Shown piece by piece: positions 3,001 through 64,000 of a DNA stretch of 64,000 bases; the first letter of the stretch is position 1; each line of letters opens with the position of its first letter. The notes beneath the pieces were generated by a model, which was not told the DNA's origin, did no database searches, and saw only the letters and a program-made list of their open reading frames with translations. Both the position numbers and the translations under genes were made by a program. Where the stretch lies: the NCBI GenBank assembly GCA_043228905.1, contig JBHGNT010000021.1:620001-684000 (forward strand). Direction: 5' to 3'. The stretch is from Azolla caroliniana. Taxonomy: Eukaryota > Plantae > Polypodiophyta.

Positions 3001-3226
3001 TACTTCTGAAGAATTATCTTCTAAACCACATGTACCAGAAAGAATTCTCGATGTTAAAACAAAAAAATTACGTACTAAAGAAATCCGAGAATTCAAAATA
3101 AAATGGATGGATAAATCAATAAAAGATGCCACATGGGAACGCGAAAATACTCTTAGAACTAACTTCCCTAACTTTCCATTGCAAGAGTGCAATGTTTTAA
3201 AGAGGGGGAGTATGTTACGGGCATGA
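2..3226 (+). CDS. pol: Gypsy Pol polyprotein (end of protease, RT, RNase H, integrase, chromodomain), 5'-partial
   Basis: The frame is open from base 2. Motifs: DVILGYPW (protease end); [26 protein letters not shown] (RT); [12 protein letters not shown] (RNase H); H..H..CHQC, SMDF, SDRD, QTERVN, GPF (integrase); PERILD..FKIKW..ATWE (chromodomain). Confidence 0.95.
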
Positions 3227-12431: not shown

Positions 12432-13652
12432 TCAGAAATAGATAGGTTTGCATTGATTCATGGTGACTTCTGTTGGGCAATAAGGGCACTTAAAAGATCG
12501 ATTCTTTGCCAGCTTCTGGAGTGTTTGCTTACAAAGAACATGACAACAGGGCATGAGCATCGGAGGGTTCTCAGCCGAGCTTTGATCTTTCGATACTGGA
12601 CAAGCAAATATTGAATGAAATTGGAACTCTTTGTCCAATTCGATTTCAATGGGCAACTGTTTTAACTGCTGCCATTCTTGCTTCTTGCTGGCCGACAAGA
12701 TTGTGGTCATCTTAAGAAGAGTTGGCAGAGCATAGGCACCTGCCAATAGGGTCACCTTGAGTGGGCTTTCATACGCTTCTCCAAGAAGAGAACAACATTC
12801 TCGGGTAAATTTCTTTCCAATTTCATCCCACATATCTGAATAGGGGCAGAACATTTCTGAATATGGACAGCTCTCAAGCCTACCCGTCCATAAGAGGCAG
12901 CACATCAGCCTTTGGATATCAGCCATGTGGCGTGATGAGAACCTTCCAAATTTCTCCCTTGCATAATTCAATGCTTCAGGTCGGAATCCTTTGTGCAAAA
13001 GTTGCAAGAATTGGAGGCGATGTAGATCGAATTCGAAGAAAGATCCCTTTTGGATAAGAAATTCCCGATTTGATTCAGCCCAACTGAGTGCGAGATCTAG
13101 ATTCCGTCCCCGAATTCCCTCAAGAATCTTATACATTTCGAAGAAAGGTGCTTTCAATGATCCATTGACACCATTACCATTATCACTATCACTATCAGTA
13201 TGAGAAGACTCCAATAAATATTCGTTCACCAAGGAATCACCTAGATCGAACAAACCTTGTCTGTAGAAATGGCGGGCTATTATCTCACAGATCTTTCTCT
13301 CTGACCAATCAACATCCCGGCAAGCTTTTGCCATATCTGTGCAGAAGGACTTATCAAGAAGCTTTCCATATTTGCCAAGGGAGAGGTGTAGGTCCTTCTG
13401 AAACGATCCAATCTCGAGTAATGAAGAGTTCTGATCTGTGATCTTTGCATGGAGTTCTTGTAGAACCGGTTTGATATTAGGGTTTAGTTCGGATCTGGAG
13501 GTTCCATGGTTCTCTGTGAGGTGTGCGAGCTTCTGTATGGAGCTTTCGAGTTCAGCTATGGCGGTATCCACAGCTTGGAGTGTCTTTGATTCAGCGGTTT
13601 TCTGTTTTTTCGAGACTCTATCGAAAGCTTCTTTGATAGACGCGAGGTCCAT
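12432..13652 (-). CDS. RMND5: RMND5/GID2 (RMD5)-like CTLH-complex E3 ubiquitin ligase subunit, 406 aa, intronless CDS
   Basis: Starts MDLASIKEAFDRVSKKQK. Has LisH (IIARHFYRQGLFDLGDSL), CTLH (FFEMYKILEGIRGRNLDLALSWAE), CRA and a C-terminal Gid-type RING (FHSIFACPVSKDQSSAENPPMLMPCCHVLC...FKCPYCP). The first 77 codons of the listed ORF are CT-repeat UTR/intron sequence. Confidence 0.95.
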   Translation of the reverse strand: MDLASIKEAFDRVSKKQKTAESKTLQAVDTAIAELESSIQKLAHLTENHGTSRSELNPNIKPVLQELHAKITDQNSSLLEIGSFQKDLHLSLGKYGKLLDKSFCTDMAKACRDVDWSERKICEIIARHFYRQGLFDLGDSLVNEYLLESSHTDSDSDNGNGVNGSLKAPFFEMYKILEGIRGRNLDLALSWAESNREFLIQKGSFFEFDLHRLQFLQLLHKGFRPEALNYAREKFGRFSSRHMADIQRLMCCLLWTGRLESCPYSEMFCPYSDMWDEIGKKFTRECCSLLGEAYESPLKVTLLAGAYALPTLLKMTTILSASKKQEWQQLKQLPIEIELDKEFQFHSIFACPVSKDQSSAENPPMLMPCCHVLCKQTLQKLAKNRSFKCPYCPTEVTMNQCKPIYF

Positions 13653-13658
13653 CTCTCG

Positions 13659-13714
<56 letters not shown>

Positions 13715-14254
13715 AGAGGGCAAGAAAGAAAAAAGACAGAAAGAAAGAGAAGAGAAGAGAAGAGGGGTAAAAGAAAACACAGAGATGTTTTTTAGGGTTT
13801 AATGGTGATAGGAAGGGAAGGAGAAAGTGAAAACCAGAAGAGGAGAACGCAGAAAGACGAAGCGTGTGGATTCGAAGGCGCAATACATCGGAGGAGGAGG
13901 AGAAGGAATGGAAGGGGAGAGTGGAGGTTTACCTGATTAGGAAAGGCGAGGAATGGCCATGGCCATGGCCCTGCTTTTCTCTGAGTGGCGCCCTTGCCTT
14001 GCCTTGCCTTCGATCTCTCTGTGTGAATTACATGAATCTCTCTGTCTCGATCAATCTCTCTCGCGATCTCTTTCTCTGTCTCTGTCTCTGTCTCTGTCTC
14101 TGTTTCTCTGTCTCTCTGTGTATGTATGTGTATGTTTTCTTCCTATTTTTGTTCACACGGTTCATTGAAAGAGAGAGTTTGGATATACATACATATGTAT
14201 GTATGTACATATTTGCAACATATGCACATACATGTATATATGTATGTATGCATG

Positions 14255-23700: not shown

Positions 23701-24068
23701 TCAGCTCTTTGTGTGTTGGAAGATCCGGAATCTGTCCTGCTGGATGATAGAATTCCTTTGAAGGATCTTCCTGTCGTCGTCGGATTCATCGGCTGAGTCC
23801 AGATCTGCATTCCTCGAATTAACCAGTGGTTCATAATTCTGAAATTCCATGTCGATTGCATTCATCACAACGCTGTTGATCACATCCGAGCTGAAATCGA
23901 AACTCTCCTCCTCCTGCTCATCACGAGAAGGGTTGCTATTGTTAACATCCAATGGCCACCCATTAGAAGCCTTCCATTGATGGTTCGATCGCGATGCCGA
24001 AGCAGTATGATGATGGGACCATGATCTATGGATCAACAAGCAATCAGGTTTTGCCTGTGCGGCCATAC

Positions 24069-24113
<45 letters not shown>

Positions 24114-27100
24114 CGATCGCGTGTGTGGGCCACACCACATCATCAATGGAGGCTGGAAGGTCTGGATTAGATGCAGATGGGGCTGGGTATTTAGATCCAC
24201 CATCATTGATATTATTACTCTCCCACACGTCCAGTTTCCACTGCCATGACCAGGGATCGAACTCTGGTGGATCCTCCAAGAGCTCTGGCGATGTGGCGGA
24301 TGATGTGGCGGATGATGTGGCGGATGATGTGGCAGATGATGTGGCGGATGATGTGGCGGCCGAGTCCAGCAGTTCCCTTAGGAGTGCCTGGGCGCGTTTG
24401 TACGATCGCACTTGGGAGTCGGTGTTGGTCGGGGGGCCTATGGAGGGCCCCATGGCTCCCCCTAGGACCACTTTCGCCTCTCCGAACCTCTCTTGCTTCA
24501 TCAGGCACATGCCCAAGTTGCATAACTTGTTATTGTCGGGTTCGAGCAACAGGGCCTTCCTGTAGGCAAATCAAGAAACCCGACAACGAACCGTATCCAT
24601 GAACAAACAAACAAGTGTCAATGTCCCCTCTATATTGGTGGCCTAGAAATCGATACATTTGACAACAATGTCGAGCACACGAGACGAATGCATGGGAAAA
24701 AAGCAGAGAAACCAACCAACCCACACATGCCCCCAAGATAAGACAAATACCTTGCTTCTTAGGGACATTTTGCTTTTGTAGAGCACCAACTCATGAATCC
24801 ATCAACAATGTTACGACTCAAATGTGAATGAGGAGGTCCAAGGTTCAAATATTTTTTTACCTGTACACTGCCTCTGCAGCAATGTAGTTGTGCAACTGCA
24901 TGTATGCCCAACCCAAATTTCCCTATCACATTCAAAATATGCTCATTCAGGCATGTTTGAGACAAATACAAGAAGGCCGAACTTATAACATTTAGAATGA
25001 CTATGTATTGACTCAATGGTAAATGTCGAAAGGTGATTCCACCATGTAGTACCCATTTATCAACCTCGAAGGAAATTTGGGATTCATTAGGGGCTATTTG
25101 CCTCTGTCATGATTCTCAAACTTTACAAATAAGAATGTTAACAAATTAAATGTCAATATTCGTTAAAAATTTGAGGTTTGGCATCAATGAGGCCGTCTTG
25201 TTAGAATTTAGTTTTCCACAAGTTGTCAACTTTGCCCTTTAAATGGCTGCCTTGCCCCAATAATGGCACACATTCATGATATGTATGAAATTCACTTTCG
25301 GTCAATAGAAATGTTGTTACACTTGCTGATCTACCTCACAAGAAAACAACCTTCGTAAAGCAATAATATACTTTCTCCCTCTCGCACTACCCTTTACATT
25401 AATCATTCGGAACACAAGAAGTGCAAGTTTACTCATAAATCTAGAACATTATATCAATCAATAAATTATAAATTCAAATGCATCCAAATTTATGGGTCTT
25501 TAATTATTTTGTAAAAAAAGTAAAAAATTTAGCCATGACACAGAGGATTCCTATAGAAATTTCGTGATAAATGAGAACTAGACCCCTCCTCCGACGAGGA
25601 CAATGAAGACTCTTCCACTCCCTTCACGAACCTCATCACCCTTGACCAAGTTCACACTTCTACATGGAGTTTTGATAAAGGAACAACATGTTATCAAGGG
25701 CAATAGAATGCCTCCAAGAGGCACACCATTAGAAAATCTTTTTGTTATGAGATTTGGGAACAATGGGCTCGAGTATGCCCTTGGGCATGACATAATCTAT
25801 ATCGAACTATCGTATGGAAATTTTATTGCAATTAGTATTATATACCAAAAATAGCGAAAAACTTAATATCTATAAATAAAACTCGTAGATGACAAAACCT
25901 CATTTGTATTCTATCACAATTATTGCATATGTTATAACTTATAAGACAACCTTTGGTTGAGGTTACATAGTTAATTGTCCATGACAAAGATACCTTTATT
26001 CACCATGTTGTTCTATGTTGCTTGTTCAAGAAACAATGGTTCACGTGGTTTGACAACATATAACCATAGGCTTTAACCTACCTTGAAAATCTTCACCATC
26101 CCTTTGAGAAGAGTGTATCTTTGGGGAGCTCTCAAATTCTCCTTTTCCATGAGACCCAATCACCACCATCAAACCCCTCCAATTAGTATATAGAAAAGTA
26201 TATGTGGTCTTTGGTCCACCTCATCCCAATCCAATAATGTATAAATTTCTTGATGTTTATAGATGTTTATACTTGTTTCATGATGGTCCCTTTTCAACAT
26301 AAAACCTGGTGACAAATCCTTGAGAAATCTAAAGTCTATCACAAACTTGACAAAACGCAATAAGACCTACCACTTAAAGCACTACAATTTGATAGCAACA
26401 CAGAAGTCTAAAATATTTCGTTCCTCCCACCAAAATCACAAGATCCAACAATAATTTACAATACCTCGTACCCCTCAACATAATTTCAGGTTTGATCAAT
26501 AAATTTGGTCGTATACAGTTTCCCCTCGTAGCATATTCATTGTGGCAGGCATCCTACATCATATTGGGAAGAGGTAGTATCAACTACTTGTACATATTTA
26601 AATAGGACATGTAGTAGTTGTATATGAATGATCTCATTCCAGTAATGGTTTGGGACTTGGGTAAAGACTTGATTATATAAACCTATATGTGTTTGGAAGC
26701 TTGGCTTATGCTCTCTTACCCCTAGATGTCCAACGAATATTGGATAACAATGAGGTTCATACTATATTTGTTGTTTACTAGGGTTGCCTTTTGTGTATAA
26801 GGGTTACTAGTCATATGAACCAAATGCAAACAATTTATCTTTACCAGATGGGTAATACATAACGAAGATAAACTAATATCCCATATTCATAGACATCCCA
26901 AACTTGAAATGATACCAAATACAACTATAAATCAATTTCCTCTAACGAATATGGTTACCAAATGAAACTAATTTAATTGTACTTGGTGGGCTCCATCCAC
27001 TTCCTTGGAGATTGAACAACCAACAAATACCATGTGATTTTTCCACATTTGCTAATAACGCTACCACATTTGACCTAGCCACATGTTTTTCCTTGGGGAT

Positions 27101-33975: not shown

Positions 33976-36900
33976 TCAGCTCTTTGTGTGTTGGAAGATC
34001 CGGAATCTGTGCTGCTGGATGATAGAATTCCTTTGAAGAAACTTCCTCTCATCATATTCATCCTCCACCTCATCACTGTCTGTGTCGGCCGATCCATTCA
34101 TCGAGTTCTCCAGTTTATAATTCATGTCGATCGCATCCATAACGCTGTCGATCACATCCGAGCTGAAACCATAGCCATCCTGGCCCTCCTTCTTATGATG
34201 ATAATGATTGCTATTGTTAAAATCCCAGGACTGCCCATTATGAGCCTGCCATTGATCATTCCATATGGACGCCGAAGTGGTATAAGGATCCGACCAGGTT
34301 CCATCGATCGACAACCGATCCGAGGACTTTACCCGTGTGTGTCCATGTTCGTGTGTGGGCCACACAACATCAATGGAGCTTGGAAGGCCTGGATTAGAAG
34401 CAAATGGGGCTGCACATTTCGATCCGCCATCATTCATATTATTATTACTCTCCCATACGTCGAGCTTCCACTGCCGTGACCAGGGATCAAACTCTGGTAG
34501 ATCCTCCAAGAGCTCGGGCATCGACAATGGCGATGACGATGCCACCGGAGAAGATGCCGTAGAAGAACCCGAGAGACATGGCAATGTGAGGAGAGATATG
34601 GGGGGCATGGCCTGCCGTAGCGTCGACGGTGAGGTGGGTGGTGACATGGACTGCGATGACGTGGTGGATGATGTGGCGGATGTCGTGGATGATGTGGCGG
34701 ACGATCCCGACAAGTCCAGCAACTCCTTTAGGAGTGTCTGGGCACGCTCGTATGATCGCATGTGGGAGTCAGAGTCGGGCCGACGTCCATCGTGGGGCCC
34801 TATGGGCATGGCTCCCCCTAGGACCACTTTCGCCTCTCCGAACCTCTCTTGCTTCATCAGACACATGCCCAAGTTGCATAGCTTGTTATTGTCGGGATCG
34901 AGCAACAAGGCCTTCCTGTAGGCAAATCAAGAGCCCGATGACAAACAAAAGAGTGTCAGTGTTCCCTCTATATTGGTGACCTAGATACATTTACATGCAT
35001 TTGACAACAATGAATGTCGAGCAACCTAGAGACATGGAAATCAATAAAACCCATGCCCCAAGATACCTTGCTTCCTAGAGACATTTAGTTTTGTAAAGGT
35101 ACCAACTCATGAATCCATATCAACAATGTTTGTTACCATTCAATGTGAATAAGAAGGTTCAAGGCTCAAAGGTTTTACCTGTACACTGCCTCTGCTGCAA
35201 TGTAGTTGTGCAATTGCATGTATGCCCAACCCAAATTTCCCTATCACATTTAAAACACACTCATTAAGGCATGATTGAGACAATATGAGGCTGAGCTTAT
35301 TATAGCATAGAACAAATGTGCATTGATGCGATGATATATGCCAAGCAACAAATTCAACCAAATAGTACCCATCAACATACATACGTATATATGTTTGATG
35401 GCACTTAGGTTGAAAATCCAAGTGAACCTTGTCCTTGGACTAAGTGCTGGAACCCAACCCATCTCAAAGGAATTCTAGGATGGTTAAGAGGGAAACTGCT
35501 TCTATGGTGACGTGACTTCTCAAGTAGCGAGGTCAAGAAATTTAATCAATATGAATAGTAATTATAAGTGAGTATGTTCACAAGTTCTTTAAAATTTAGA
35601 GGCTTCACTTTGGTAATGTCAAGTCTTAATTGCCAAGTCTTGTAAAGTTTGTCCTAAGTTTTGACTTCTGCCTTCTGAGCATATGGCAACCACTTCGGAC
35701 AAGTACATAATTCCCTTCGGTCAAAAGTGTTTTCCTATACTTTTAGTAATAAATCTAGCATATACCATCAATTAACAAATTCCAAAGTTTACTAAAAAAA
35801 TTTCCAAATCATATGAATTGAAATTGAAATTTCTTTACATTGTCAATAAATTGATTATGACACGAAGGATGGCTATATAAATTTAGTGAGAAAAAGAAAA
35901 CTTTATAAACAATGTCATAATGATGAATGTAACTACAATGATGTAGGGACATCTCATGAATGCAACCACAATGACAAGGATAACAAATACTTTTTCATTG
36001 GCTTGATGGCCCGCCCTCACAACCCTTGACCAAACTCCTACTTCCACCTGGATTCTTGACATAAGAGAAAGATGGCATGTTACATCCAAGGTGAAATGGC
36101 TCTAAGACCGTAACCAATAATGAAATTCCTTTGCCATGAAATTTCGGGAAAAATGAGATTGAGTACGCCCTTGGGCATGGCACAAACCATGTTGAATTAT
36201 TTGGTGACGATTCTATTGTATTCAAACAAGTTTGTTCAATACCAAACAAGTTGAAAAAACTCAATACTCAAAAATAAACTCATAGATAAATAAATTTTTT
36301 GTCAAAATCTATCTCAATTATACTCAGTTAATTGTCCACAACAAGGAAGCCTTCCTGTACTAGGTCGTCAACATAAAATTACTCCAAGGAAACCTAATAA
36401 AGATGCATACTACATTGATGATTCCAAATCATAAAATTACTCCACTTTAGTATTATTGATTAGGCCCTTTGAATCTTAATGAAAAAATGGTTCATATTGC
36501 TCAACAATGTACAACGACTAACTTTACCCTACCGCGAGTATCTTAACTATATTTCCTATTGTGAAGCTGTCAAATTCCCTTTTTTCTTCACACCCCATAA
36601 CCAACACCAAACCCCTCCCCATATATTGGGTCCCTCATCCACCTCATGCCTATCCCATAACATATATTTCATTATGGTTCATAGAGGATGATACTCATTT
36701 CCCAATAATCACAATTCTAACACAACATTTAGCTACCAAGTTCATTAGAAATTAAGGTTTACCATGAGCTAGTGGCAATGCAAAAAGATCCACGCCTACA
36801 ATCAAAAGCTTAGGATCGTTGATAACCACCAACACAATTCAAAGAGTTGAGTGAGAATCATCAATCGTATATATATGTGGCTCATAGCATGATCACTGTT

Positions 36901-39594
36901 GCAATCCTCCCCATCACATAACGTTGGGAAGAGATGGTATCAATTGCACACTACACATTTAAAGGACATATGGTATGTCTCTTTCAACAAACTCATTCCA
37001 TTTATGGTTTGTTAGAAGTTTGGATTATACAAACTTATGAGCTTTGGATGTTTGGCCTATGCCTTCATGATACCCCTAGATGCTCAGGCTAAATTAGATA
37101 ACCATGTAGTTTGTACCAACCATATTTGTTGGGAATTGAGAATCTCATGGTTACACAGGTTATTATTGTATGAACCAAGACCCAAATGATTTATATTTAG
37201 ATGATGGGCAATATTCGACAAAGATAAACCAGATATCCCATAGTAACGAGATAAATCAGACACCTTGAACCTAAACAATACAAGAACATTTGCAAAACCC
37301 AATCTCTTTGATGATAAATCACTAGGCAACTAACCCATCTACTAGTACTTCATGGTGAGTTCCATCCATTCCTTTGGAACATGATGTTAATTAGCCATCT
37401 TCACTAATAATCCCATATTTATTATTAATCCTACGATGTGTTCTCCCCATGGACATTGGTTCTCTTTTGTCTATGGTAGAAAAACCTCCAAAACAAAGCA
37501 AACCACACAGTCCAATCATAAAAACAAATCATATTCAAAAAATATGAAGATCTCTGGTTATCCTGAATGTGACACTTTTTTGGGTGTAACAAATCTCACT
37601 CATCTTGATTTTTCATGTTCACATCCTTGTGGAAGATCATCTACCCCATGAACAAGATTCTCATACCTCTGGAAAAAAGAATGACGTCATTAAAGACACT
37701 TTTTGCCTATTATTCATCCCTACCTCAAATGAGATTCCCAAAGTGATCCAAATGGGGTGTACTAATGTTCCCACTCATGAACAACATCCTCAGAGTATAC
37801 ATGGGTGTAGAATCTCAGAAATCTATGGTTGGCTTCTTCTTTATCATGGCAAGAGTAGCAGTTATGTGGCTATAAAAGATGCAAGACTCCATGACATTCT
37901 CGTTTGCAAAAGCAGAATTAGTAGCAAAAGCATCCAAAGCACTCCAAAACAACAAAACGTGTGGACTCTGAAATACCATCTCATAAGATAACTCAACAAA
38001 GAAAATAAATGTGCATTAGAGTATACATACATAAATAATATGCTAGCTGATTTCTTAACAAAGGCTCTACCGACATACTAGTTTGAAGCTTGTTGTGAAA
38101 ACTTAGGTCTAGAAAGATTACGGGGTTGTTAAAATAAACTAATTCATGTAAAACTATATAAACATGTGGAATATGTATTGCAACTACAACTAACTCGAAG
38201 CTACTTCAATGTGTTTACAAATTCTATTGGTGTGCTATAACTACACCTAACATTGATCTACTTCAATGTGTTTACTAATTATATTCATGCACAAGTACAC
38301 TAGTTAGCATGATGATCAAACATCATGATGATGAAGTCAAATAAGCGAGATTGGTATAAGGGAAGACTTCATCCTTGTTTAATTTTCTTTGTTGTGTTAT
38401 GTAGTCTTCATCATGTCTAGGAAGTCCAAGCCTATCACCAATCTGATTACCTGATAGGGTTGTTGTGTGTCATTTAATATACACACTAGTCAGTCACATG
38501 GGGCAGTAGTACCTAATCCCAGTTCAAATATAGTTTGATTCTTCTTTTATGCATTGAATTTACAAACCATAACAATACATGGGTTTATAGTTTACCAAAA
38601 GCCGTGTCGCCTCTTGTCGAATAGATATTTGGAACTTCTTGCCTTGGGAACGCGCTGTCTTCGTACGTTTTCCGTTGAAGATCAACCCCGTGTGAATAAG
38701 ATTCAACTTATGCTTCAACAGTTCAATTTGGTCCTCAATTCGACCACATTTCTACAAGACCAATTATGGCATGTGAGGAAAAAAACATTAACAAAACATA
38801 GTTAAACCTAGAGAGACATACACAAAGTCTCTAATTGTGAAGGTTCTATATAGGATCTATATATGTGTGTGTGTGTGTGTATAGATCCTTCACAATTAGA
38901 GACTTTGTCTTCAAGAAACTAAGGCTTAGAAGTATACATATTAAAACTTAAAAACTTATGAACATGAACAACTTCAAACAAGCCTAAATTAGGAAGAAAA
39001 TATTGTCATAAATTATCTAAATATAGACACATTTATGATGTCTCCTCCTACAACAACAACAACAACTAGTGGTAGTAGTTGTAGTAGTAGTAGTACCTCT
39101 AACAACTACAACTACAACTACTACCACTAACTACTACTACTACTAGCTACCACTAGTTACTACAATTAGACCTTGTAGAGATCTAGGAGGAGGTTGTCAA
39201 GAGCTGGCTGAGCAGCAATGGAGCAATGCTTCCGGAACGAGCGGATGGCCTCGATCGCCTCCTCTGCCCTGTTCTGCTGCTTCATTACGATCGCCATATC
39301 CTTGAGCGCACTGTCCACTCGGTCACCAGCATTTATCGCTGCCCAGAACAACGCTATCGCCCGCTCGGGATCTTTCTCCAACAACTGCATGCAAACACAC
39401 ACTTCACACTGATTAAGAGCAGTAATTTAGGTGTCCTCATTAAGGGATGCTTGGTTAGATTAGTATCATGTTTAGTAAGAGATTGCAATGCTTTTCAGTA
39501 ATTGGTCACTAATTACCTGTGCATGTTTAGCGCGAACATAAGGACCATCTCCTGTTGGGATCTTGACTAGTGTCTCCTTCTTTGTCGCAGTCAT
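33976..39594 (-). CDS. MS5/TDM1(POLLENLESS3)/SDI1-family TPR protein, copy B (~482 aa, 5 exons; start uncertain)
   Basis: Exons 39594-39517, 39384-39172, 38751-38596, 35240-35179, 34915-33976. The first four exon sizes (78/213/156/62) match copy A, with the same family motifs and the same C-terminus RFRIFQHTKS. Confidence 0.9.
35460..38200 (+). mobile_element. Degenerate Ty1/copia remnant in intron 3 of TPR copy B
   Basis: RNase H end MLADFLTKALP..FEACCENLGL at ~38040-38115 followed by a G-rich tract and TGTT; FGCLAYA-like sequence at ~37045; patchy DNA similarity to 25.0-27.4 kb. Confidence 0.7.
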
Positions 39595-51130: not shown

Positions 51131-54024
51131 ATTGTTTGGACGCTTCTTTTTTAGGAAATTTTGAGATGAGTCTGGCGACTTCCAAAAGTAGTCACAAGCA
51201 CCAAGGATTACCCACTCTCCCTTATCCTCTTCATATTGTACATCGACGGGGCAAACTACTATCGAATACGGCTATATAATGGCCGCATTCACACTGTCCC
51301 TTTGAACAAACTAGGCTTAGGTCATTTATGTAAATTTGTTTGAGGGAAAATGCCTTAACCCAGATAGTATATAACTAGTCTTGTAACCTAGCTCAAGTTG
51401 TTGTTGATCGTAACATTTTGGAATAATACAACTACATTGTGTGCCTACTCTCTATCTCTCATTCTCATTCATATTCTGTTTCTTTGATCTTGTCTTTGTG
51501 AGGTTGCCTTCTGTGATCTGTTCTCCATAGTCTACTAGTGTCATAACTTGTTAGTCTTCATCATATACTATTGATATTGTTTCAAGACTGATGGACTCAA
51601 CTCCAACATCTAGTATCAGAGCCAGGTTCTTCAAGTTGTTGTTGGCCGTCATTCTTCCTCAATAGTGTTCCTGCTTCCAACACTTACCAGAACAGACTCT
51701 GAGATCTTGGACGAAATGAAATCTCGTGCTCAGCAACCACCAAGGTCTCACTCTGAGAAGAGAAAGATACATGTGAATTTGCACTTCACTACGATAAATC
51801 ACCTCTAAAGCAAGCCAATTGGCTAATTTTCCCCACTGTGATTGTAACCACTCGAATTGGTATCCCTACACTAACGACTCCAACCGCGTTCCATCCGGCT
51901 GAGTAGTATTCGGACAAGCTAGCCGGCGTTGTCTACTCAACCACTACAACCACCTGAAGCAGGCTCGACGTCAGGAATCATAACATAATCTATGATCGGC
52001 CCATAAAATTGGAAATCAAATTCAGATCGGTAGTTCACTGTGATCAAATTGCCTAGGCAACATTAAGGAAGGCTAGTTGGCTCTGTCCCTCCAAATTGTT
52101 GTAACCACTCTGAGCAAGTTTAGTACCCAACTATCATCTGAAAATCAAACAGGCTATCCAATTGGCACATTCTTGTCCACCTCGGCTCGATCCACTATAG
52201 CTACTTCGAACAGAACCCACCAATAGTCGAAGTCGATTTGATTCCCGCCTAAATCCGACTACAACGATATTGGGTGAGCTATTCGGCTGCATCCCACGAT
52301 AGTTCGTAGTCGACCCTAGACAGTGCCTAGTCAACCGACACAAAAATGACATCAACATCCGGCTGATCAGAGATGAATGTAGGGAAGTTCGACGGATCTA
52401 ACATCAAATTCTGGAAGGAACACAAATGTACTAGGACTACCTAATTGTCAAAGGTCAGATATATCCAATTGAGTTCGAGAATCCTCCAGAAGGATACAAG
52501 CCAAATGGGTAGACGAAACTAGACAGAATTGTTGAAGCCACCATTCAAATGCACTTGTCAGAGTTAGTGTACTTCACAATGCAATCGTGTTCAACCGCCT
52601 TCCAATTATGGAACACTCTCTTTGACACTTACGAAAAGAAGGTCACTGCCACAAAGATATATTTGGTTCAGCGCCTCTACAATCTTCGAATGAAAGAATC
52701 TGACTCGGTCCAGCCACACCTCAATGAGTACGAAAGCCTAAGCTCCCAAATCTCGGCTCAAGGGACGACAATCGAAGACGAATTAAAAGCAATGTTCCTC
52801 ATGAGTAGTCTCCCCACTTCATGGGAAACGTTCGTTAGAACCGTATGTAATGCGTCAACTGGTGCCGTGAAGTACTTCAAAGTCACGAGCTCAATCCTAA
52901 CGGAAGCTAATCGAAGGAAATCATTTGCAAACGATTCGGCCAGTGACACCTATGTAGTACAAGGTTCGGTCGACCAATCGAATAGTCCAGGAAGACGTTC
53001 TTCCCGATCGGCAACTAATACACGAAGTTGAAGTAAGTCTTGGCATAATTGAAGCTACAATTACTGCAAGAAACCTAGACATATCAAGGCTGATTGACGT
53101 GCCCTCAAAGCCAAAAATGATAAGGCTGAGAGAGCTTATCACAAGGACAGTCAACAAGAGGAGGTCAACTACGTCGACTTATGAGCCGAAGTATTGATAG
53201 ACAACCCGAACATTTTGTTCATAGAACACCTTGTCGAATCAGAAGTTCTGCTTACGACTGAAGAGTCAAGCACTTGGCTCTTGGACTTGGGTGCGTCCTG
53301 CCATGTGACCCCTCACAGATCACAATTTCGGAAATTCGCAACACTATGCGATAATCGGAATCAACATTGTAGAACTTAACCTTCCATGTGGCTCTACTCT
53401 TGTACTACACAACGCCTGACATGTCCCATAATTATCAAGGCCATTGATATCTGTCGGACAACTAGATGAAGATGGCATCTGTGCCGACTTCTCAACGGGA
53501 AGGTGGACATTCCACCGGCGGAACCTCCTACTTGTTGGAGGACCGAAGGAACATTCATTGTACCCGATGTATGTCACCTTCAAGGTAGGTGACCTATTAA
53601 TGGTGGACATCCTTGTGTCATCATTATGGCACGGCCAACTTGATCACCTTATCTAAGTCAGCTTTACGCACCTATCTAGAGTCGGCTATATCCCTGTTGG
53701 GTATGTGAGGAAGAGTGGGAAACACACAAGAAGCTCAAAGAAAGAAGCACTCACACAAGGAAGGCAATGGCTGGAATAGCTCTCTATTGATGAATGTTCC
53801 TAAAAAAAAATAGGAGCTGAAATATATATCCCTAAGTACTAAGTACCACCACATATGAGTGACTCATGTATGTGGTAACATGGGGAAAAAACCTCTAGCC
53901 AGCACTAGAGTAAAAAGTGCCCATGTATAGGGAAAATGGTTCACATCAAAGCTACTAGAGGAACACGCAAGTGTAACAAACCCCCCTGGAGCGAATGATG
54001 TGAACATGTACAAGGAGTGACAGA

Positions 54025-57000
54025 TCAGCCCCCACAAGGCAATAAGCCTAAAGCTTTGCGAAAAGCTTCAAACTTTTCTCGTGGAAGAGCTTTGGTGAAT
54101 ATGTCTGCCACGTTATCTTGTGTAGGCACATATACCAAATCAATATCTCCTGCATGAAAGCGCTCTCTCACATAGTGATAATGCACCTCAATGTGTTTGG
54201 TCCGTGCATGAAATACAGGATTTCGTGCAACAGCCAATGCACTCTGACTATCTGTGAGAATACGTGTAGCAACTTCAATCTCCATGCAAAGATCCATCAA
54301 AAGGCGTCTTAGCCATATACACTCCACTGTAGCTGTGAAAACTGCCCTGTACTCAGCTTCACAACTTGATGTCGCCACTGTAGGTTGCTTTTTACTCAAC
54401 CAAGATATACATGAGTTTCCAAAGAAAAAGCAATTACCACTAGTGGACACGCGAGTATCATAACAACCAGCCCAATCACTATCTGTAAAAGCATGCAAGC
54501 ATGGCTGAGTATCTCTGCCATAAAAGAGACCCAAGCTCAAAGTGCCTCTAAGATATCTGAACACACGTTTCACTGCTTGCCAATGCTTAGTGCCAGGGCT
54601 ATGCATGAATCGACTCAATTGGGAGACTGCATACTGTATATCCGGCCTTGTATTGCATGCATATATAAGACATCCCACAGCTTGTTGATAAAGAGAAGTA
54701 TCAAACGCATCACTAGAATCCTCAACAGAGAACCTAAATCCTGTCTCCACAGGTGTATAAACCGGCTTGCAATCCTCAAAGTCAAAACGCTGAAGTAGTT
54801 TTTCAACATACTTTCCTTGATGCATAAACATTCCCCCCTCAACGGATACAAACTGGATGCCAAGATAGTAGCTCAAAAGACCAAGATAAGTGACTTCAAA
54901 AGTATGCTGCAAATCAGCCATAAGAAAATCGAGTTTTGCATCACATGACCCAGTCAAGAGTATGTCATCAACATAAAGAACGAGCACTAGAAGATCAGCC
55001 CCATCTTTGCGTACATAAAGTGTGCTTTCAATCGGACTACATGTGAAGCTAAGAGAAATCAAGTGCTTATGGATTTTTTCATACCATGCACGCGAAGCTT
55101 GCTTTAGACCATACAAGGCCTTATGCAAGCGACAAACCATATGCTCTTTCTCTTTCGTAGCAAATCCAGGAGGTTGCTTCACATAAACCTCTTCTTGCAA
55201 ATCACCATTTAAAAAGGCTGTTTTTATGTCCAATTGATGCATTTTCCAACCTCTTTGGGCAGCCAATGCAACCACGGTACGAATGGTAGTCATGCGTGAA
55301 GTAGGTGCAAAAGTTTCCTCATAATCAATGCCATATTGTTGGGCATATCCTTTGGCAACCAATCTAGCTTTGTAGCGATCAATACTACCATCGGGCTTTC
55401 GTTTAATCTTGTAAACCCACCTAGTACCAATCACATTCTTTCCTTTTGGCAATTCACATAACTCCCAAGTACCATTTTTATGAATGGAATCCATTTCTGA
55501 TTGCATAGCACTCATCCAATGTGGATCATCACATGCATCTTCAAAAGTAAGTGGCTCCTCATTACATGCTATTGCAACAATAGAATAATCCACAAAATTA
55601 CCTGATGCATGGCGAGAGCTTGATCTTGTTTTACCAAGTAAAGGTGCACTCAATTTGCTATCTTGCAAAGTTTGTTTCAGCCACCTCGGCATAGTTTGTG
55701 ACCTCTCGATAGCCATACGTTCATTATGTAATACATCTTCAATATGTACATCATGCGTGGGCTGAATTTCATGCTCATTTTCAGCCACATTTGGTTGGAC
55801 ATTTCGTGCATTTTCAACACTTATTTGCTGGAAATTTTTATCCCTTTGAGACTCACTTGGCTGGTCTACATGTCCATGGTCAAGCGCAGCACTTTGGAAC
55901 AAAGGCATGAGTGTATCAAACACATCTTGTGAGCTAACTGTTGGTTGTTTTTTGCATTCAAGAAAAGGGAAAGCTGAATTTTCAGCAAATACCACATCTC
56001 GACTCACAATAATTGTGTCCGTCAATGGATGATACAAACGATATCCCTTACTTTCCGCACTATAACCAACAAATATGCATTTCTTTGCCTTGTCATCAAG
56101 TTTGTGACGTTGTTGTGATGGCACAAGAGCATATGCCAAACAACCGAACACACGCATATGACTAACCATAGGTTTATGTCCATTCCAAGCCTCATATGGC
56201 GTAATGACTCTCAACGCTTTTGTAGGGCAACGATTCAACACATAATTTGCACACATAACCGCTTCCATCCAAAACTTGTTAGGAAGATGCTTTCCTTTAA
56301 CCATACATCGTGCCATCTCTAAGAGTGTTCTATTTTTGCGTTCTGCAACACCATTTTGTTGAGGTGTATATGGCACCGTACATTGATGTAAAATACCTCT
56401 CTCACAAAGAAAAGCATTAAACTCATGTGACATATATTCGCCACCACGATCCGTGCGTAGAGTCAAGAGCTTATTTGCGGAAAAATTTTCAGCCATAGCT
56501 AAAAATGATTTGAAGCAAGAAAAGACTTCATTCTTTGCTTTCATAGGATACACCCATGTATGACGAGTAGCATCATCAATGAAGGTAACAAAATATACAT
56601 GCTTTCCAAAAGATGGAGTCTTTACAGAACCACACACATCACTATGAACAAGTTGTAATTTTCTTGTAGTGTGTGTATGACTATCTTTTGGAAAAGAAGC
56701 ACGATGCATTTTTCCAAGAATGCAACCTTCACATGCATGTTTTTCAATGGACTCAAGTGTAGGCAACCCAATAACCATATCCTTCTTTTGCAAGTGAAGC
56801 AAACTATTGAAGTTCAAGTGACCAAAACGAGCATGCCAAAGCTCCATTTCAGCCATGGAAGAAGTATGTACAGCCAAGGCATTTAGAGAAGCCCTCTTGT
56901 ATGTATCTAAACGGTACAAGCCATTGCATAATGTACCGGACATCACGATAACATCACCATTGCTATAATCGTGAACCATGCACTTATCATCAACAAAATG

Positions 57001-58371
57001 TACATGAAGTCCGGCTTTGGCAATCAAAGGAACCGAAATTAAGTTCTTCTTGATACCGGGCACATACAATACATTCTTTAAGATGACAACACCTCCATTT
57101 GCAGCCGAAAGCTCAATTTCTCCTACTCCAATGATAGGATAAGAGGCATTGTTTGCACACACCACATGTCCACCTTTGGGTGCATCTTTCAAGGATGCAA
57201 AAAAACTTTTGCATGAAGTAATGTGCTTTGAAGCACCACTATCAAAGAACCAATCCGAATCAATCTCACTTACAACCATACATTTAGAGTGCAATGATGC
57301 ATCATAATGATATGTAACAACACATGCCCAATAATCTTGAGCCATGTTGGCCTCATCACTCTTTGCACTTGAAACATTTTCAGAAATGGTCATGCCGGAT
57401 TCCTTCTTCTTCTCATTGCGCTTAACAAGCTTTCTACATTCTTCAATCGTATGGCCAACCTTTCGACAATATTTGCATTTTTTCTTCTTTTGCAAATCAC
57501 CATCATTAGAGGAATAAGTGAAAGAGGGAGGTTGAGGCTTTGGTTTTGAAGAACCAAAAGCTGAACCATGCTTGCCTTTTCCTTTTTGTGAGATAGCAAG
57601 TGCTTGTGTTCCCTCTATCAAACCACTTCTATTCACTCTAGATTGTTCTTCTTGCAAAAGAAGAGACACAACCTCATCAAATGCGTACATATCCGTATTC
57701 CCTTTTGCAACCAAACGAATAGTAGTAGCAAAGCTTTGAAAAGATTCGGGTAATCCTTTCAACAACGTAGAGACAAGTGATGTATTCGAAATGATCTCAT
57801 CAATGTTTGCCAATTGCTCTTTCAAATCTTTAATGCGTGTCACATACACATCTACCGACTCATTTTCAGCCATATATACATCCTCAAGTTGCTTTCTCAA
57901 ATATGCAACACGTGCTTCGTTACGCACGGCATATGCTCAAGCTCATGCATTGATTGCACTTTCTGTGAAGCGTCATATAGTTCCACATATTCGGTCATGC
58001 TCTACGTCCAAACAAGCAAGAGTGTCCCATGCTTGTTTGGACGTAGAGCATGACCGAATATGTGGAACTATATGACGCTTCACAGAAAGTGCAATCAATG
58101 CATGAGCTTGAGCATCTTTTCCATCCCATCTAAGTTGCTCTTGTGTTGGTGGAGTAGATGAAGTCACTGTGCTCGAAGATGAACCTGTATCTGTGATAGT
58201 AGACTGTGAAGTAGTAGGACCGGCGGGGCGTCGATCTACATCTACCACTATGTTCCATAGTTGTTTGGCAACAAGAACGTGTTTCATCATGTAGGACCAC
58301 ATTGGATAGTTTGTCCCATCAAGCTTATCTTCAGCTTGAAGCATGCCAAACAAATCACCATTGTTTGCCAT
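54025..58371 (-). pseudogene. Copia Gag-Pol polyprotein, interrupted only by a 75-nt in-frame inverted insertion carrying stop codons
   Basis: MANNGDL..KLDGTNYPMWS (gag), CKYCRKVGHTIEEC (zinc knuckle), WFFDSGAS (PR), WHARFGH..CEGC, VHSDVCG, TDRGGEY, AERKNR (IN), YKARLVAKGY, LYVDD (RT), TDSDWAG, ADIFTKAL (RH). The two ORF pieces are in the same frame. Confidence 0.95.
57933..58115. repeat. Perfect inverted repeat: 86-bp arms with 11-nt loop
   Basis: 57933-58018 is the reverse complement of 58030-58115; the loop is AGAGTGTCCCA. The peptide AQAHALIALSVKRHIVPHIRSCSTSKQA appears in ORFs on both strands. Confidence 0.97.
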
Positions 58372-58982
58372 TTTACCAAAGAACAAGAAAGTGGTAAAAT
58401 ATTACCTCAACAAATCGGAAATGAGTGCTGAAAATGCAGCTCACAAACTATCACTCGGATGACGATTTCGACTACACGAACGGCTTCGAAATGGGGGTAA
58501 AACAGCAGGGTACCTGCTGAAAATGCGCTCCAAGTGCTGAAATACACTTCTCTATATTCGGAAGTTGATTTGCACAATGAAAAGTGCGCGCGCGCCGCGA
58601 CACCGCGATGCGGACAACCGAAGATGGAGAGGATGAAGAACTTGGCTCTGATACCACTGTTGGGTATGTGAGGAAGAGTGGGAAACACACAAGAAGCTCA
58701 AAGAAAGAAGCACTCACACAAGGAAGGCAATGGCTGGAATAGCTCTCTATTGATGAATGTTCCTAAAAAAAAATAGGAGCTGAAATATATATCCCTAAGT
58801 ACTAAGTACCACCACATATGAGTGACTCATGTATGTGGTAACATGGGGAAAAAACCTCTAGCCAGCACTAGAGTAAAAAGTGCCCATGTATAGGGAAAAT
58901 GGTTCACATCAAAGCTACTAGAGGAACGCGCAAGTGTAACAAACCCCAAGCTCTCTTCTCTTACCATAAGTTTTGTGAGCAT

Positions 58983-59248
58983 TGTCAATACAGCAAACAA
59001 ACTACAACCACCCATCTGACAAGAGAGACGAGATAGTCGAGCCTGCTTGACTTGGTTCATTTAGATATTTGTGGTCCAATGCCACACTAGTCTCTCGGCG
59101 GAGCGTCATACTTCGTGTCAATACAACAAACAAATTACAGCCACCCATCTGACAAGAGAGTCGAGAGAGTCGAGCCCGCTCGACTTGGTTCATTCAGACG
59201 TTTGTGGTCCAATGCCACACTAGTCTCTCAGCGGAGCGTCATACTTCG
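58983..59248 (+). repeat. 133-bp diverged tandem duplication within the old copia integrase
   Basis: TGTCAATACA at 58983 and 59116; both copies end GGAGCGTCATACTTCG. Confidence 0.9.
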
Positions 59249-59530
59249 TGTTGGGATCGAGACCGGCCATAACCAGTTTCACTTTGAATGTTCGGGTGCA
59301 AAGAATCGGTATAGACAGTACACATACATATAAACGAGGAAGCAGAAAGATAAGTACAAAGACACAAGATATTTTACGTGGAAAACCCGAAAGGGAAAAA
59401 AACCACGGGGGTCCACAAACCCCAAGAAACAAATCACTATGTAAAGAGAGGAATACAATGAGATACTCGGAGGCAACGACCTCGAGATCTTCTTTGTCTG
59501 ATTCATGGCTATTAAGTTACTACTCTCACT
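59249..59530 (-). mobile_element. Partial LTR (U5 end), related to the solo LTR at 49773-50297, apparently interrupted by the LINE
   Basis: Begins TGTTGGGATCG. Its reverse complement contains GTTTGTGGACCCCCGTGGTTTTTTTCCC..GGGTTTTCCACGTAAAATATCTTGTGT, matching 50152-50211. Confidence 0.65.
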
Positions 59531-59996: not shown

Positions 59997-60806
59997 ATGA
60001 CGTCTAGACGGCCTAAGGAACATAAGGATATACAAGACGAGGCTATAAGTAAGGACTTTTTAGATATGTTTAATCGTTTAACAAAAATAGAGATGGATAT
60101 GAAAAAATGGGTGAAAGACACCGAAACCCACAAGAAAAAAGATAGAGAGGAAAAAGACGCCCTCAAGGCCGAAATAGAATAACTTAAAGTAGAAAACATC
60201 GACCTTAAAAAACAACTTAAGGACATCGAGGTATCTCGAGAAGACGGTGAAATATCCTCTATAGAGGATATAAAGGACGAAATTAAAAAAGTTAAAGAGG
60301 AAGTTAATAATAACATAGAGTTAGCTAAAATGGGTTGGGTAGATGTGGTTAAAAGAAACATTAAAAAAGAAATAAAAGATGAAAATATTGTTAATACCAC
60401 CCTTGAAGAAGAGAAAATGCGTCAGGCCCGACGCTTAAATGTACGTGTCACTGGGCTCAAGGAAGGTGCATCCCCAAATGAGGACGCACAAACACTTGGG
60501 AAAATGTTAGGGTACACAAAGGCCCTACCTATCACCAAAGCATGGAGGGCCGGGCGTGACACAACTAGGAAGAGAGCCTTAGTCCTTCAATTTAAAGACT
60601 TAGACTCTAGAATCACTTTCTTTAAGAAGAGACCAATCCTTCGAGGAATGGATGGGGACCCCATCTATCTCGATGAAGACCTCACTAAGATGCAAATTGA
60701 GCATCGCAAGAGTTGTATGCCACAAGTTATGCAAGCTCGTAAAGAAGGCCATCGCGCCTTTTACCGAGACGGGCGAGTGATCATAAATGATCCCACTACT
60801 AATTGA
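59997..60806 (+). pseudogene. LINE ORF1 (coiled-coil plus RRM/CTD type) with one nonsense codon at 60180
   Basis: Starts MTSRRPKEH, then a K/E-rich coiled coil, RRLNVRVTGLKE, RALVLQF, IYLDEDLTK, AFYRDGRVII. The frame is continuous across the TAA at 60180-60182. Confidence 0.85.
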
Positions 60807-63800
60807 CGGCGTGTGGCCCATGTGACAGAAAATGCACTTAGGATGACCCTATGGAATTGTAATGGCGCACTCTGGGCACACCCCGGCCGCCTAGAGGAGA
60901 TACTAAAGGTATCTTATATACTTTTCTTGGTAGAAACACATCAGAGCCCAAATAGAGGACTCCCACGGGTCGAAGGATTCTGTTGGGAGTCCGCTTTTAG
61001 ACAAACCTCACGTCGACACACTACTAGGGGATCTGGAGGTGTCGTGATACTATTTCGTAGAGAGCTACATAATAGGATAGAAATAATGAAGATAGACCCA
61101 GAAGCTCGTTTTATGTGGGTGAAAGTCTCCACAAGCAAAGACCATGCAGTATTTTTCGCCATTTGTTACTTTCCCCCAAAAGGATCCCGTTATAATATTG
61201 GTGGCTTGACGAGATTAGTCAATGAAGGAATGCCACATGGGCCTTCTCCATACGAACCCCTATCGGATGACATAATCCGATATTCTTCCCAAGGAGAAGT
61301 ATTTCTTGTAGGAGACTTCAATGCGAGAACCCAATCCTGACAATGCACAGTATTTCAGATGAATAGAAACCTAGATATGGTAAATGTTGATCCTTTAGAC
61401 ATAGGCACCACACGTAGATCAAAAGATGAAGGTGCGGACGCCACGAGCTTTGGCCATCATCTGCTCGAACTTGGCAGTCGGCACCAGATGGTCATATATA
61501 ATGGTTTAGCTAAGTGGCCAAGCTCGGAAGAGCTCACATGTTTCCCACATGGAGGAGGGGAAAGCACAGTTGACTATCTAATAGGGCGCCCTGAAGCTAC
61601 CCACATGATTAACTCATTCTGAGTGGCCCCATGCCCTATTGGCGCAGACCATAGTTTCTTATACTTCGAGCTAAAATGTGATATCTCTAAGGTCACCAAG
61701 TCTAGTCAACCATGCCATCACACCACAATACATTTCACACATGAGCTCTCTGACATATACTCTCAACATGTTCAGGCCCATCTCCCCTCCCTTGATCCCT
61801 CCCTACCGTTAGAAAGCCTTAGTACAAAACTCACACACATCCTTCACTCCGCAGCAGCTAGCAGTTTCCCATATACAAAACACTCAAATCAAGGTAGATC
61901 AGGATCAATGCCACAAAATAAATGGTATGACGAGGATTGTAGGGACCTACATAGACAACTTACAGTATCGCAACTCAATGGTAGTATTACCTCCATACAA
62001 GCTCGCAAAGCAATGTGTAAGATGACACGTCGTAAGAGACGAGCGTGGGAGGCATCCCAATACTGGGAACTCTACCATATGCTCATGAGTAGCGATTGCG
62101 CCACAGCATGGAAGAGACTACGGGAGCCAAGACCACAAACACCCATCGAAGATCCCGAAACTTGGCACACATATACAGAGAGATTTTACCAAATCCCAAA
62201 CCAACCACCCTTTCCAATGCCTTCCACACCCCGGCCTACCACGGGGACACTTTTCACGACCTCTAGGGTCATGAAGGTCATAAAGAAATTACAACATAGG
62301 AAGTCCATGGACCACACAGGATTGCGAGCAGAACACATTATATATATATGCGAGAGAGTGCCTAGCTCCCTTGCTAACTCTAATCTTCAATCGTGCCCTT
62401 GCGGAGGGTTTTCCACCACGGTGGACTATGAATACAGTGGCCCCCATACATAAAGGGGGGGACCCCATGGACCCAAATACATATAGGACCATTATGATAG
62501 GCCATACCCTTGCTAAGTTATATGGTGCAGTAATGGAAGCAGAGCTTAGCGACTACATGGAGACCCTAAACCTTCGTGCACCTGAACAAGCTGGCTTTAG
62601 ACGAGCCTTCTCCACTATTGATCATATCTTCACACTTAGATGCCTAATTGACCAAACTAAGGCTCGCAAGAAGAAATTATATTGTTGTTTTGTGGACTTC
62701 CGCAAAGCCTTTGACACAGTCCCTAGAGAGTGGTTGTTTGATAGACTTAAAAGCTTGAGGATACCAGATGATATGGTATGGGCCATCTACGCACTATATG
62801 AACAAGTGTCCGGGTGTGTCCGATGCCCAGGTGGCCTATCCAATCGTTTCACTAGCACTATTGGTGTAAAAATAGGTTGCCCCCTATCACCGACGCTTTT
62901 TGGGATCTACATTGATGAGATCACAGATTTTATTGCTCGTGAGGGAGGCACCGAAGTGGTCCTTGGGGATACGCAGGTTCGTATCTTGCTCTATGCGGAT
63001 GACATAGTTTTGCTCTCTGAATCTGAACACGACCTACAGAGGCACCTTAATGCCTTAGATGACTTTTGTGTACAACGAGGATTGGTAGTGAATCTAGGGA
63101 AAACAAAAGTCCTTATCTTCCACACATCGGCCCAAGTTAGAGCTAAGTGTCACCTAACTATCTCCCATAGCCCAGTCGAGGTGGTTGGATCATACGTCTA
63201 TCTCGGAGTCACTTTTAGTGCCCGCTCAGGTAAATTTTCGATGACACAGGCAGCGAAGGATAGACTCATGAGAGGACATGCATCCCTCTCACTCCTAGAG
63301 AGACAATGCCACCAAGCACACTTTCAAGAGCCACGGACTAAAGGGTGGCTCTTTGACTCATTAGTGACCCCCTCCCTCATGTATGCATCAGCGGTTTGGG
63401 CTCCAGGATTACCATCTTTCATGTGGACGCAATTAGAGAGACCATTGGTGATGATGTTATCACGCCAACTCCGAAGCAAATCGACTGTACCACATGACAT
63501 TATTAGGGCCGAGTTCACGTTACCCCCAATGCTAGTAGAGGCACTTTTTCAACTTGTAGTCTTCATTTATAGGATACATAGCCAACCACATGATAGAATA
63601 TCTCATCAAGCCTTTAAGGCCTCTCGATCATTGTATGAGTCCGGCTATACTAGCTCATGGTATGGCATGATGGTGAGTTGGCTTCTTGCGAATGTTCTAG
63701 ACATTAATAACCTACCTCCCCTTAGGTACAACCACACGAGTGATAACACCTTAATCTCTCATGAGAACCGCAATAAAGTAATACGCCAAGAAATATGGCA

Positions 63801-64000
63801 AATTTACACTCGGTGTAAATGGATCACCCCACTAGAGCCACTCCCATCTAAAATGTCGTACTATAAGAAACACTTCATGCACTTCTCTGAGTTAGGTTTT
63901 ATCACGCGGCCAAAATATCTAGATGTATTCTTACCACATGCAATAAGGGTTGCCATTGGACAACTTAGAATATCATCTCACCAACTTGAGATTGAAAATG
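60807..64000 (+). pseudogene. LINE ORF2 (APE endonuclease plus reverse transcriptase); stops at 61338 and 61620, frameshift at ~62345; 3'-partial
   Basis: Endonuclease: TLWNCNG, FLVETH, GSGGV, VGDFNART, STVDY, ADH. RT: NTYRTIMI, QAGFR, FVDFRKAFDTVPR, GCPLSPTLF, LLYADD, YVYLGVTF. C-terminal LRISSHQLEIE. Confidence 0.92.

What the first reader, a model, noticed from the sequence alone, without database searches (positions are those of the whole stretch)
57933..58115. Perfect 86-bp fold-back hairpin inside the gag of a very young copia: a candidate 'killer' copy or nascent hairpin small-RNA locus
Seen: perfect 86-bp inverted arms around an 11-nt loop. Removing 57934-58008 (75 nt, 25 codons, three TGA stops) restores a continuous gag-pol reading ...KQAWDTLACLYAVRNEAR..., and this is the only lesion I see in an element with near-identical LTRs and intact PBS/PPT. 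Inference: a short native quasi-palindrome (AAACAAGCA-loop-TGCTTGTTT) primed a fold-back template switch during reverse transcription or repair. The LTR transcript would form an 86-bp dsRNA stem near its 5' end. Established: inverted duplications can yield siRNAs that silence a TE family in trans (maize Mu killer) and are a proposed origin of new MIRNA genes. This copy may be self-inactivated, may still be mobilisable in trans, and could silence its own family.
Basis: partly seen in the sequence, partly recalled or inferred. Interest (0 to 1): 0.8.

Follow-up and report, generated by a model that had tools for sequence, protein, structure and literature searches.

The report
Copying-slip hairpin inside fern retrotransposon
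One young copy of a plant jumping gene (the host is likely a fern) carries a flawless 86-base-pair hairpin that the sister copies examined lack and that cuts its protein short; it is likely a one-off DNA copying slip of a known kind, and nothing here shows that it makes small RNAs or silences its family.

Summary
The hairpin is in the sequence: 86-bp perfect arms, 11-nt loop, in the gag of a 5.2-kb copia with 284-bp LTRs differing at 1 site. All 4 runs laid and all 5 sibling loci show a hairpin-free allele. That is a 3-2-1-4 template-switch mutation, a described class; this scan noted similar ones in other genomes. It is the only frame-breaking lesion, but three missense changes also set the copy apart from every sibling covering them. 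The 'killer' idea is untested and weak. Mu and Ac killers have kilobase arms that include the element's terminal repeat; this stem is 86 bp of gag only, and gag siRNAs did not stop the copia EVD. I could not confirm the allele independently, so an assembly artefact remains possible (about 15%). Verdict: likely real, a known mechanism, probably no function.

The parts
58030..58115 (-). 5' arm of the hairpin on the element's sense strand: native gag sequence, the template that was copied
   Evidence: identical to the dominant family contig of run X1 (table 8)
58019..58029 (-). 11-nt loop, native gag; centre of the 8-of-10 quasi-palindrome present in siblings
57933..58018 (-). 3' arm. 58014-58018 is native; 57934-58013 (80 nt) is the inverted copy, standing where siblings have 5 other letters; 57933 fits either side. 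Contains three in-frame TGA stops
57973..58371 (-). Truncated gag ORF, 132 aa: 119 native residues, 13 read from the new arm, then a stop
54025..57936 (-). Remainder of gag-pol, 1303 open codons, 99.2% identical to the uninterrupted 1423-aa sibling P0001; three missense changes absent from all covering siblings
58658..58941 (-). 5' LTR, 284 bp, TG...CA; TATA-like motif near 58792
58645..58656 (-). Primer-binding site (tRNA-Met type; label recalled)
53979..53990 (-). Polypurine tract before the 3' LTR
53695..53978 (-). 3' LTR, 284 bp, 1 difference from the 5' LTR
53690..53694 (.). Left copy of a 5-bp target-site duplication; the right copy (58942-58946) matches at 4 of 5
52513..53694 (+). Older, degenerate copia (gag ORF 52513-53031; integrase-like remains continue at 58947-59250) into which the young element inserted in opposite orientation

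Best explanation
The hairpin is likely a one-off template-switch mutation in a single young copia copy, which the sequence shows can no longer encode a full gag-pol and which probably has no selected function. Shown: siblings carry an imperfect stem (5 perfect pairs, 8 of 10) around the same 11-nt loop; this copy has 80 nt of inverted upstream gag where they have 5 nt; three stops follow. Inferred: a polymerase making the sense strand folded back on that stem (or jumped to the opposite strand), copied 80-81 nt of upstream gag, and rejoined its template with about 1 nt of homology (four-point order 3-2-1-4; the mirror 1-4-3-2 gives the same product). An equivalent path is a switch at the end of the 10-nt quasi-palindrome, 75 nt copied, and two stem mismatches corrected. 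I lean slightly (about 55:45) to plus-strand reverse transcription over host replication, because the copied arm lies upstream on the sense strand; the sequence cannot separate the two. If transcribed, the RNA would be a premature-stop message with an 86-bp stem, predicted to be diced into a few gag-only siRNAs, giving at most modest post-transcriptional damping of siblings rather than heritable family silencing.
For: Hairpin-free allele in 4 of 4 runs from 4 studies, again as loose ends in X6, X7 and X8, and in 5 of 5 loci. None of 90 related proteins with the flanking W-x-x-L motif (of 139 fetched) shows the hairpin-derived tail. The copy matches the dominant X1 contig with 0 other letters over 57600-57933 and 58014-58558, so that allele is its likely parent. 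A quasi-palindrome sits exactly at the switch point. Type 3-2-1-4/1-4-3-2 makes inverted repeats and is 31% of high-confidence human-chimp events (PMC5453318, passages); single switches of up to 83 bases are reported (bioRxiv 2023.04.19.537475). Two switches with an in-register return do not look like long-read fold-back artefacts, which turn once near the read middle (PMC12870357, passages). 1303 codons without a frameshift suggest accurate local sequence. In Arabidopsis EVD, gag siRNAs lower gag RNA but do not prevent transposition, and silencing goes with LTR 24-nt siRNAs (PMC11624286, passages).
Against: The allele rests on this one assembly; no independent data set confirmed it. Two local oddities fit either private mutation or assembly error: a 9-A run in both LTRs where runs X1, X5 and X6 mostly show one A fewer, and a target-site duplication with 1 mismatch that makes it resemble the PPT-side junction. 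One X6 contig shows a clean 75-nt skip. 'No function' is a default, not a test. In maize, 22-nt siRNAs from transcribed mudrA sequence trigger transitive silencing, so a coding-region hairpin is not necessarily harmless.
Confidence: 0.66

Rival explanations
1. Assembly or library artefact: the inverted arm was created in vitro or during consensus building in a multi-copy repeat and does not exist in the plant.
For: Siblings in every data set examined show the hairpin-free allele. The LTR A-run length and the target-site mismatch differ from expectation. The locus is a near-identical repeat nested in another repeat.
Against: It needs two switches with an in-register return, whereas described fold-back reads turn once and are virtually absent from HiFi data (PMC12870357, passages). 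The first switch sits on a native quasi-palindrome, as in vivo models predict. The long ORF has no frameshift, and the copy has private substitutions, so it is not a collapsed family consensus. The sequencing platform is unknown to me.
Confidence: 0.15
2. Killer locus: the copy is transcribed from its own LTR (or by read-through from the older element it sits in), the stem is diced, and the siRNAs heritably silence the family in trans, as Mu killer does.
For: A perfect 86-bp stem inside the transcription unit, about 250 nt after the start codon. The arm matches close siblings: 53 of 66 possible 21-mers are perfect against L002 and L003, 10 against L005, 0 against L001 and L004. An Ac killer can run from the element's own promoter. 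Ferns have DCL1, 3 and 4 (PMC5569507, passages). Hairpin-like regions of maize TEs map more small RNAs (PMC10760457, abstract).
Against: Known killers have arms of 1.8-3.9 kb (Ac killers) or a hairpin RNA of about 4 kb (Muk, listing), and include the terminal repeat; this stem has no LTR sequence. Muk acts through 22-nt siRNAs, and DCL2 was not detected in leptosporangiate fern RNA-seq (this may be a detection limit, and the host's order is not established). Gag siRNAs were dispensable for, and did not by themselves cause, EVD silencing. The copy's own LTR would be silenced together with the family (inference).
Confidence: 0.08
3. One reading: a parent allele with a perfect 10-bp palindrome took a clean 75-nt insertion.
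For: One X6 contig (depth 18.7) skips exactly 75 nt, and single contigs in X1 and X5 fit from 58009 on (tables 5 and 7), so such an allele exists somewhere in the wider family.
Against: The X1 and X5 contigs differ from the window at 8 of the 30 letters next to the junction (my comparison, table 7). In one search only one X6 contig covers 57894-57926, so the 75-skip contig is likely that diverged copy. The window copy is identical to the dominant allele on both sides.
Confidence: 0.06
4. Proto-MIRNA under way: the hairpin is expressed, precisely processed and retained by selection.
For: Template switches have produced miRNA stems in primates and mice (bioRxiv 2023.04.19.537475).
Against: No Rfam match in the window. 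The arms have no bulges, and no second carrier was seen that would suggest retention. Over 6,000 suitable hairpins gave at least 18 miRNA genes in that study.
Confidence: 0.04

Closest known systems
Short-range template-switch mutation, type 3-2-1-4 / 1-4-3-2 (Loytynoja and Goldman 2017, PMC5453318, passages read); Ripley quasi-palindrome correction
   Same: Reverse-complement copy of nearby sequence, two switches, a few native bases replaced, a perfect inverted repeat seeded at an imperfect one.
   Different: At 80-81 nt the copied piece is at the long end of the examples I read. It lies in the coding region of an LTR retrotransposon, so reverse transcriptase is a possible author.
Template-switch-born miRNA hairpins (Monttinen et al., bioRxiv 2023.04.19.537475, parts 1-2 of 4 read)
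   Same: One-step birth of a perfect stem inside a transcription unit.
   Different: Those have expression and processing evidence; here there is none. The stem is 86 bp against about 35 bp, and its natural targets would be sibling elements.
Mu killer and Ac killers of maize (bioRxiv 2020.01.09.900282 and 2020.01.07.897926, passages; PMC3440606, search listing only)
   Same: A derivative of the element with an inverted duplication of its own transcribed sequence, complementary to active siblings.
   Different: DNA transposons, kilobase arms that include the terminal repeat, made by aberrant transposition, with dsRNA, siRNAs and heritable trans silencing demonstrated. Here: a retrotransposon, 86 bp of gag only, nothing demonstrated.
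EVD (Arabidopsis Ty1/copia) gag siRNAs and nested antisense LTR hairpins (PMC11624286, passages)
   Same: A copia whose gag RNA becomes a dsRNA source; hairpins proposed as triggers of silencing.
   Different: EVD dsRNA is made by RDR6, and the proposed trigger is an LTR hairpin from a nested insertion, not a short gag stem.

Membership tests
Ty1/copia LTR retrotransposon | Paired TG...CA LTRs, PBS, PPT, target-site duplication | tested here: met
   284-bp LTRs, 1 difference; TSD matches 4 of 5
Ty1/copia LTR retrotransposon | gag, protease, integrase before RT | tested here: met
   Retrotran_gag_2, Pol_BBD, gag_pre-integrs, rve, RVT_2 in that order
Template-switch mutation 3-2-1-4 / 1-4-3-2 | Inserted piece is the exact reverse complement of nearby sequence; flanks collinear with a close relative | tested here: met
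   80 nt replace 5; 0 other letters in 334 and 545 flanking bases against X1
Template-switch mutation 3-2-1-4 / 1-4-3-2 | Allele confirmed in independent reads | tested here: inconclusive
   Only contigs could be laid; these drop rare variants
Quasi-palindrome (Ripley) seed | Pre-existing imperfect inverted repeat at the switch point | tested here: met
   5 perfect pairs and 8 of the first 10 in 5 of 5 sibling loci
Transposon 'killer' locus (Muk, Ac killers) | Inverted duplication of the family's own sequence | tested here: met
Transposon 'killer' locus (Muk, Ac killers) | Long (kilobase) arms that include the terminal/promoter repeat, as in the described cases | tested here: not met
   Arm is 86 bp and ends 543 nt inside the 5' LTR boundary; compare
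Transposon 'killer' locus (Muk, Ac killers) | Hairpin is transcribed into dsRNA | tested here: inconclusive
   One guessed-RNA contig set laid (X18); its piece cannot be assigned to this copy
Transposon 'killer' locus (Muk, Ac killers) | 21-24-nt siRNAs from the arms | not testable with these tools
   No small-RNA library among the 24 runs listed
Transposon 'killer' locus (Muk, Ac killers) | Heritable silencing of active copies in trans | not testable with these tools
   Needs genetics and methylation data
MIRNA gene | Match to a known family | tested here: not met
   0 Rfam matches at gathering score in 64 kb
MIRNA gene | Precise miRNA/miRNA* excision | not testable with these tools
   No small-RNA reads

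The most novel reading that the evidence does not exclude
A single slip of the element's own reverse transcriptase turned one copia copy into an RDR-independent hairpin source that silences its near-identical family in a fern: a 'killer' for an LTR retrotransposon, born in one step from a stem built into gag, so that the family could repeatedly generate its own off-switch. I found no such case in print.
Probability: 0.07. Interest if true: 0.7.

Novelty: new member of a known kind. Interest (0 to 1): 0.24.

Why it matters
As it stands, this is a clean example, anchored by sibling sequences, of a long template-switch mutation in a plant retrotransposon: useful for the mutation-mechanism literature, not surprising. 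If small RNAs and trans silencing were shown, it would bear on an open question, how silencing of a young LTR family is first triggered, and would do so in a fern lineage that may lack DCL2. The two unique junctions make that test cheap.

Tried and rejected
No whole genome is held for this window, so copies could not be counted or compared within the assembly. Junction search: none of the listed contig pieces from 7 runs (X1, X5, X6, X13; X6, X7, X8, X18; 7 of the 24 listed) crosses the hairpin-specific junction at 57933. Both piece tables were cut (304 and 9 rows not shown), contigs drop rare variants, and it is unknown whether any run is from the assembled individual, so this is not evidence of absence. 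The best word share was 0.90, against about 0.92 expected for a non-carrier (54 of 671 31-mers are hairpin-specific); the same caveat applies. No RNA holder listed. A 20-nt junction pattern found 0 matches in viral contigs and genome contigs, collections not expected to hold plant DNA. Exact protein look-ups: the two window references were one codon off and uninformative; repeated correctly, 0 of 4 were in the collection. X6 has depth 12 at the right flank (58963-58980), but I could not tell a filled from an empty site. Summed contig depths are not copy numbers and were not used as such. Dating the hairpin by arm identity fails: with 1 difference in 284 bp of LTR, 0 in 86 is expected either way. 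Findings index: nothing near this place or by sequence. bioRxiv supplements are closed; the length distributions in the supplements of the two template-switch papers were not seen and bear on how unusual 80 nt is.

Full report
Observation. The window holds a perfect inverted repeat with arms 57933-58018 and 58030-58115 and an 11-nt loop. It is far beyond chance: the next longest perfect arm in 64 kb is 22 bp, and 0 of 200 shuffles fold as well (z -25.5). It lies on the minus strand in the gag of a 5,247-bp Ty1/copia element with Pfam domains in copia order, 284-bp LTRs differing at one site, a PBS, a PPT and a 5-bp target duplication matching at 4 of 5. With recalled plant rates of 1.3e-8 or 5e-9 per site per year, one difference gives about 0.14 or 0.35 million years, with 95% limits from a few thousand years to 0.75 or 2.0 million. 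'Young' is fair; 'very young' is loosely bounded. The element sits in opposite orientation inside an older, broken copia. The host is likely a fern: most named relatives of the gag protein are from Adiantum, and earlier notes on this genome also say fern (unchecked).

What siblings show. Contigs of four runs from four studies all carry a dominant allele that joins 57933 to 58014 with five other letters between. The X1 contig is otherwise identical to the window over 334 and 545 bases. Five metagenome-assembly loci fetched with a flank motif all lack the hairpin, and an uninterrupted 1423-aa sibling is 99% identical. So 80 nt of inverted gag stand where siblings have 5. In all five loci the stem around the same loop has 5 perfect pairs and 8 of the first 10. 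A diverged family member with a clean 75-nt difference exists (one contig each in X1, X5 and X6), but the X1 and X5 contigs differ at 8 of 30 adjacent letters, so it is unlikely to be the parent.

Other lesions. The hairpin is the only break in the reading frame: 132 aa, then three stops, then 1303 open codons. Three transition-type missense changes, one in the integrase core and two in RT, differ from every one of the 10, 8 and 9 siblings covering them (15 siblings compared). These siblings are assembly contigs, some probably from sister species, so the changes may be private or subfamily-wide.

Mechanism. The geometry is the four-point order 3-2-1-4, or its indistinguishable mirror 1-4-3-2, which creates an inverted repeat and made up 31% of high-confidence human-chimp events (PMC5453318, passages). 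Single switches of up to 83 bases and one-step birth of hairpins are described (bioRxiv 2023.04.19.537475, parts 1-2 of 4). Shown here: the parent-like allele, the seed, the copied length and about 1 nt of homology at the other junction. Inferred: the polymerase and the timing. An intramolecular fold-back gives this product only while the sense strand is being made, which fits plus-strand reverse transcription or host replication; PMC5453318 argues that such switches in primates are inter-strand. I lean slightly to reverse transcription, but arm identity cannot date the event.

Is it real? I could not confirm the allele outside this assembly; the contig tests are listed under Tried and rejected and do not show absence. 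For reality: two switches with an in-register return, a native seed at the first switch, a frameshift-free 3.9-kb ORF and copy-specific substitutions. Described fold-back artefacts turn once near the read midpoint and are virtually absent from HiFi data (PMC12870357, passages). Against: the platform is unknown, both LTRs have one more A in a homopolymer than most contigs of three runs, and the target duplication has a mismatch. I put artefact at about 15%.

Killer or small-RNA locus? The stem would match close siblings (53 of 66 perfect 21-mers against L002 and L003; 10, 0 and 0 against the other three), and ferns have DCL1, 3 and 4 (PMC5569507, passages). Hairpin-like regions in maize TEs do attract small RNAs, but they are nearly ubiquitous (PMC10760457, abstract). 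The described killers are much larger and include the terminal repeat: 1.8-3.9 kb arms for Ac killers (bioRxiv 2020.01.07.897926, passages) and a hairpin of about 4 kb for Muk (PMC3440606, listing), acting through 22-nt siRNAs (bioRxiv 2020.01.09.900282, passages). DCL2 was not detected in leptosporangiate ferns by RNA-seq; PMC11799827 (passages) did not settle this. For the copia EVD, gag siRNAs lowered gag RNA without stopping transposition, and silencing tracked LTR 24-nt siRNAs (PMC11624286, passages). In favour, Muk's effective siRNAs come from transcribed sequence and spread transitively, and one Ac killer uses its own promoter. No Rfam family matches. Mobilisation in trans is possible in principle, since LTRs, PBS and PPT are present, but a diced, premature-stop RNA would be a poor template (inference). 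None of 90 related proteins carrying the flanking motif, out of 139 fetched, shows the hairpin-derived tail.

Verdict. Best reading: a likely real, one-off template-switch mutation that disabled one copia copy; a new member of a known kind. I found no printed case of an LTR-retrotransposon killer made this way (searches; searches covered fern small RNAs, DCL2 and artefacts), which keeps the bold reading worth a cheap test at about 7%. Interest 0.24.

Noticed in passing
window 53690-53694 and 58942-58946: The target-site duplication has one mismatch, which makes the 5' LTR's outer junction read like the PPT-side junction for 6 bases. This could be retention of the unprocessed 2-nt cDNA end, conversion between LTR ends, a point mutation, or a polishing error.
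   Followed up: partly
window 53796 and 58759: Both LTRs have a run of 9 A where most contigs of runs X1, X5 and X6 show one A fewer.
   Followed up: partly
window 58983-59248: 133-bp tandem duplication (92% identical) in the integrase region of the older host copia; another TG-starting, LTR-like sequence appears to begin near 59250.
   Followed up: no
window 38822-38908: Perfect 22-bp inverted repeat with a 43-nt spacer, the second longest in the window; no Rfam match.
   Followed up: no
window 23704-24570 and 33979-34926 (-): Two paralogous ORFs with weak TPR matches, about 78% alike at DNA level: a likely local gene duplication.
   Followed up: no
window 18418-19187: Three near-identical tandem copies of a unit of about 259 bp (98-99%), next to a more diverged pair at 17795-18285.
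   Followed up: no
window 2-3223 (+) and 60183-64000 (+): A chromodomain-bearing gypsy pol with 1074 open codons, and a partly broken LINE with endonuclease and RT.
   Followed up: no
window 12435-13928 (-): Single long ORF with CTLH and RING domains, a likely host gene.
   Followed up: no
P0010, P0135: Relatives of this plant copia gag are filed under bacterial names in public databases, likely plant contamination of those assemblies.
   Followed up: no
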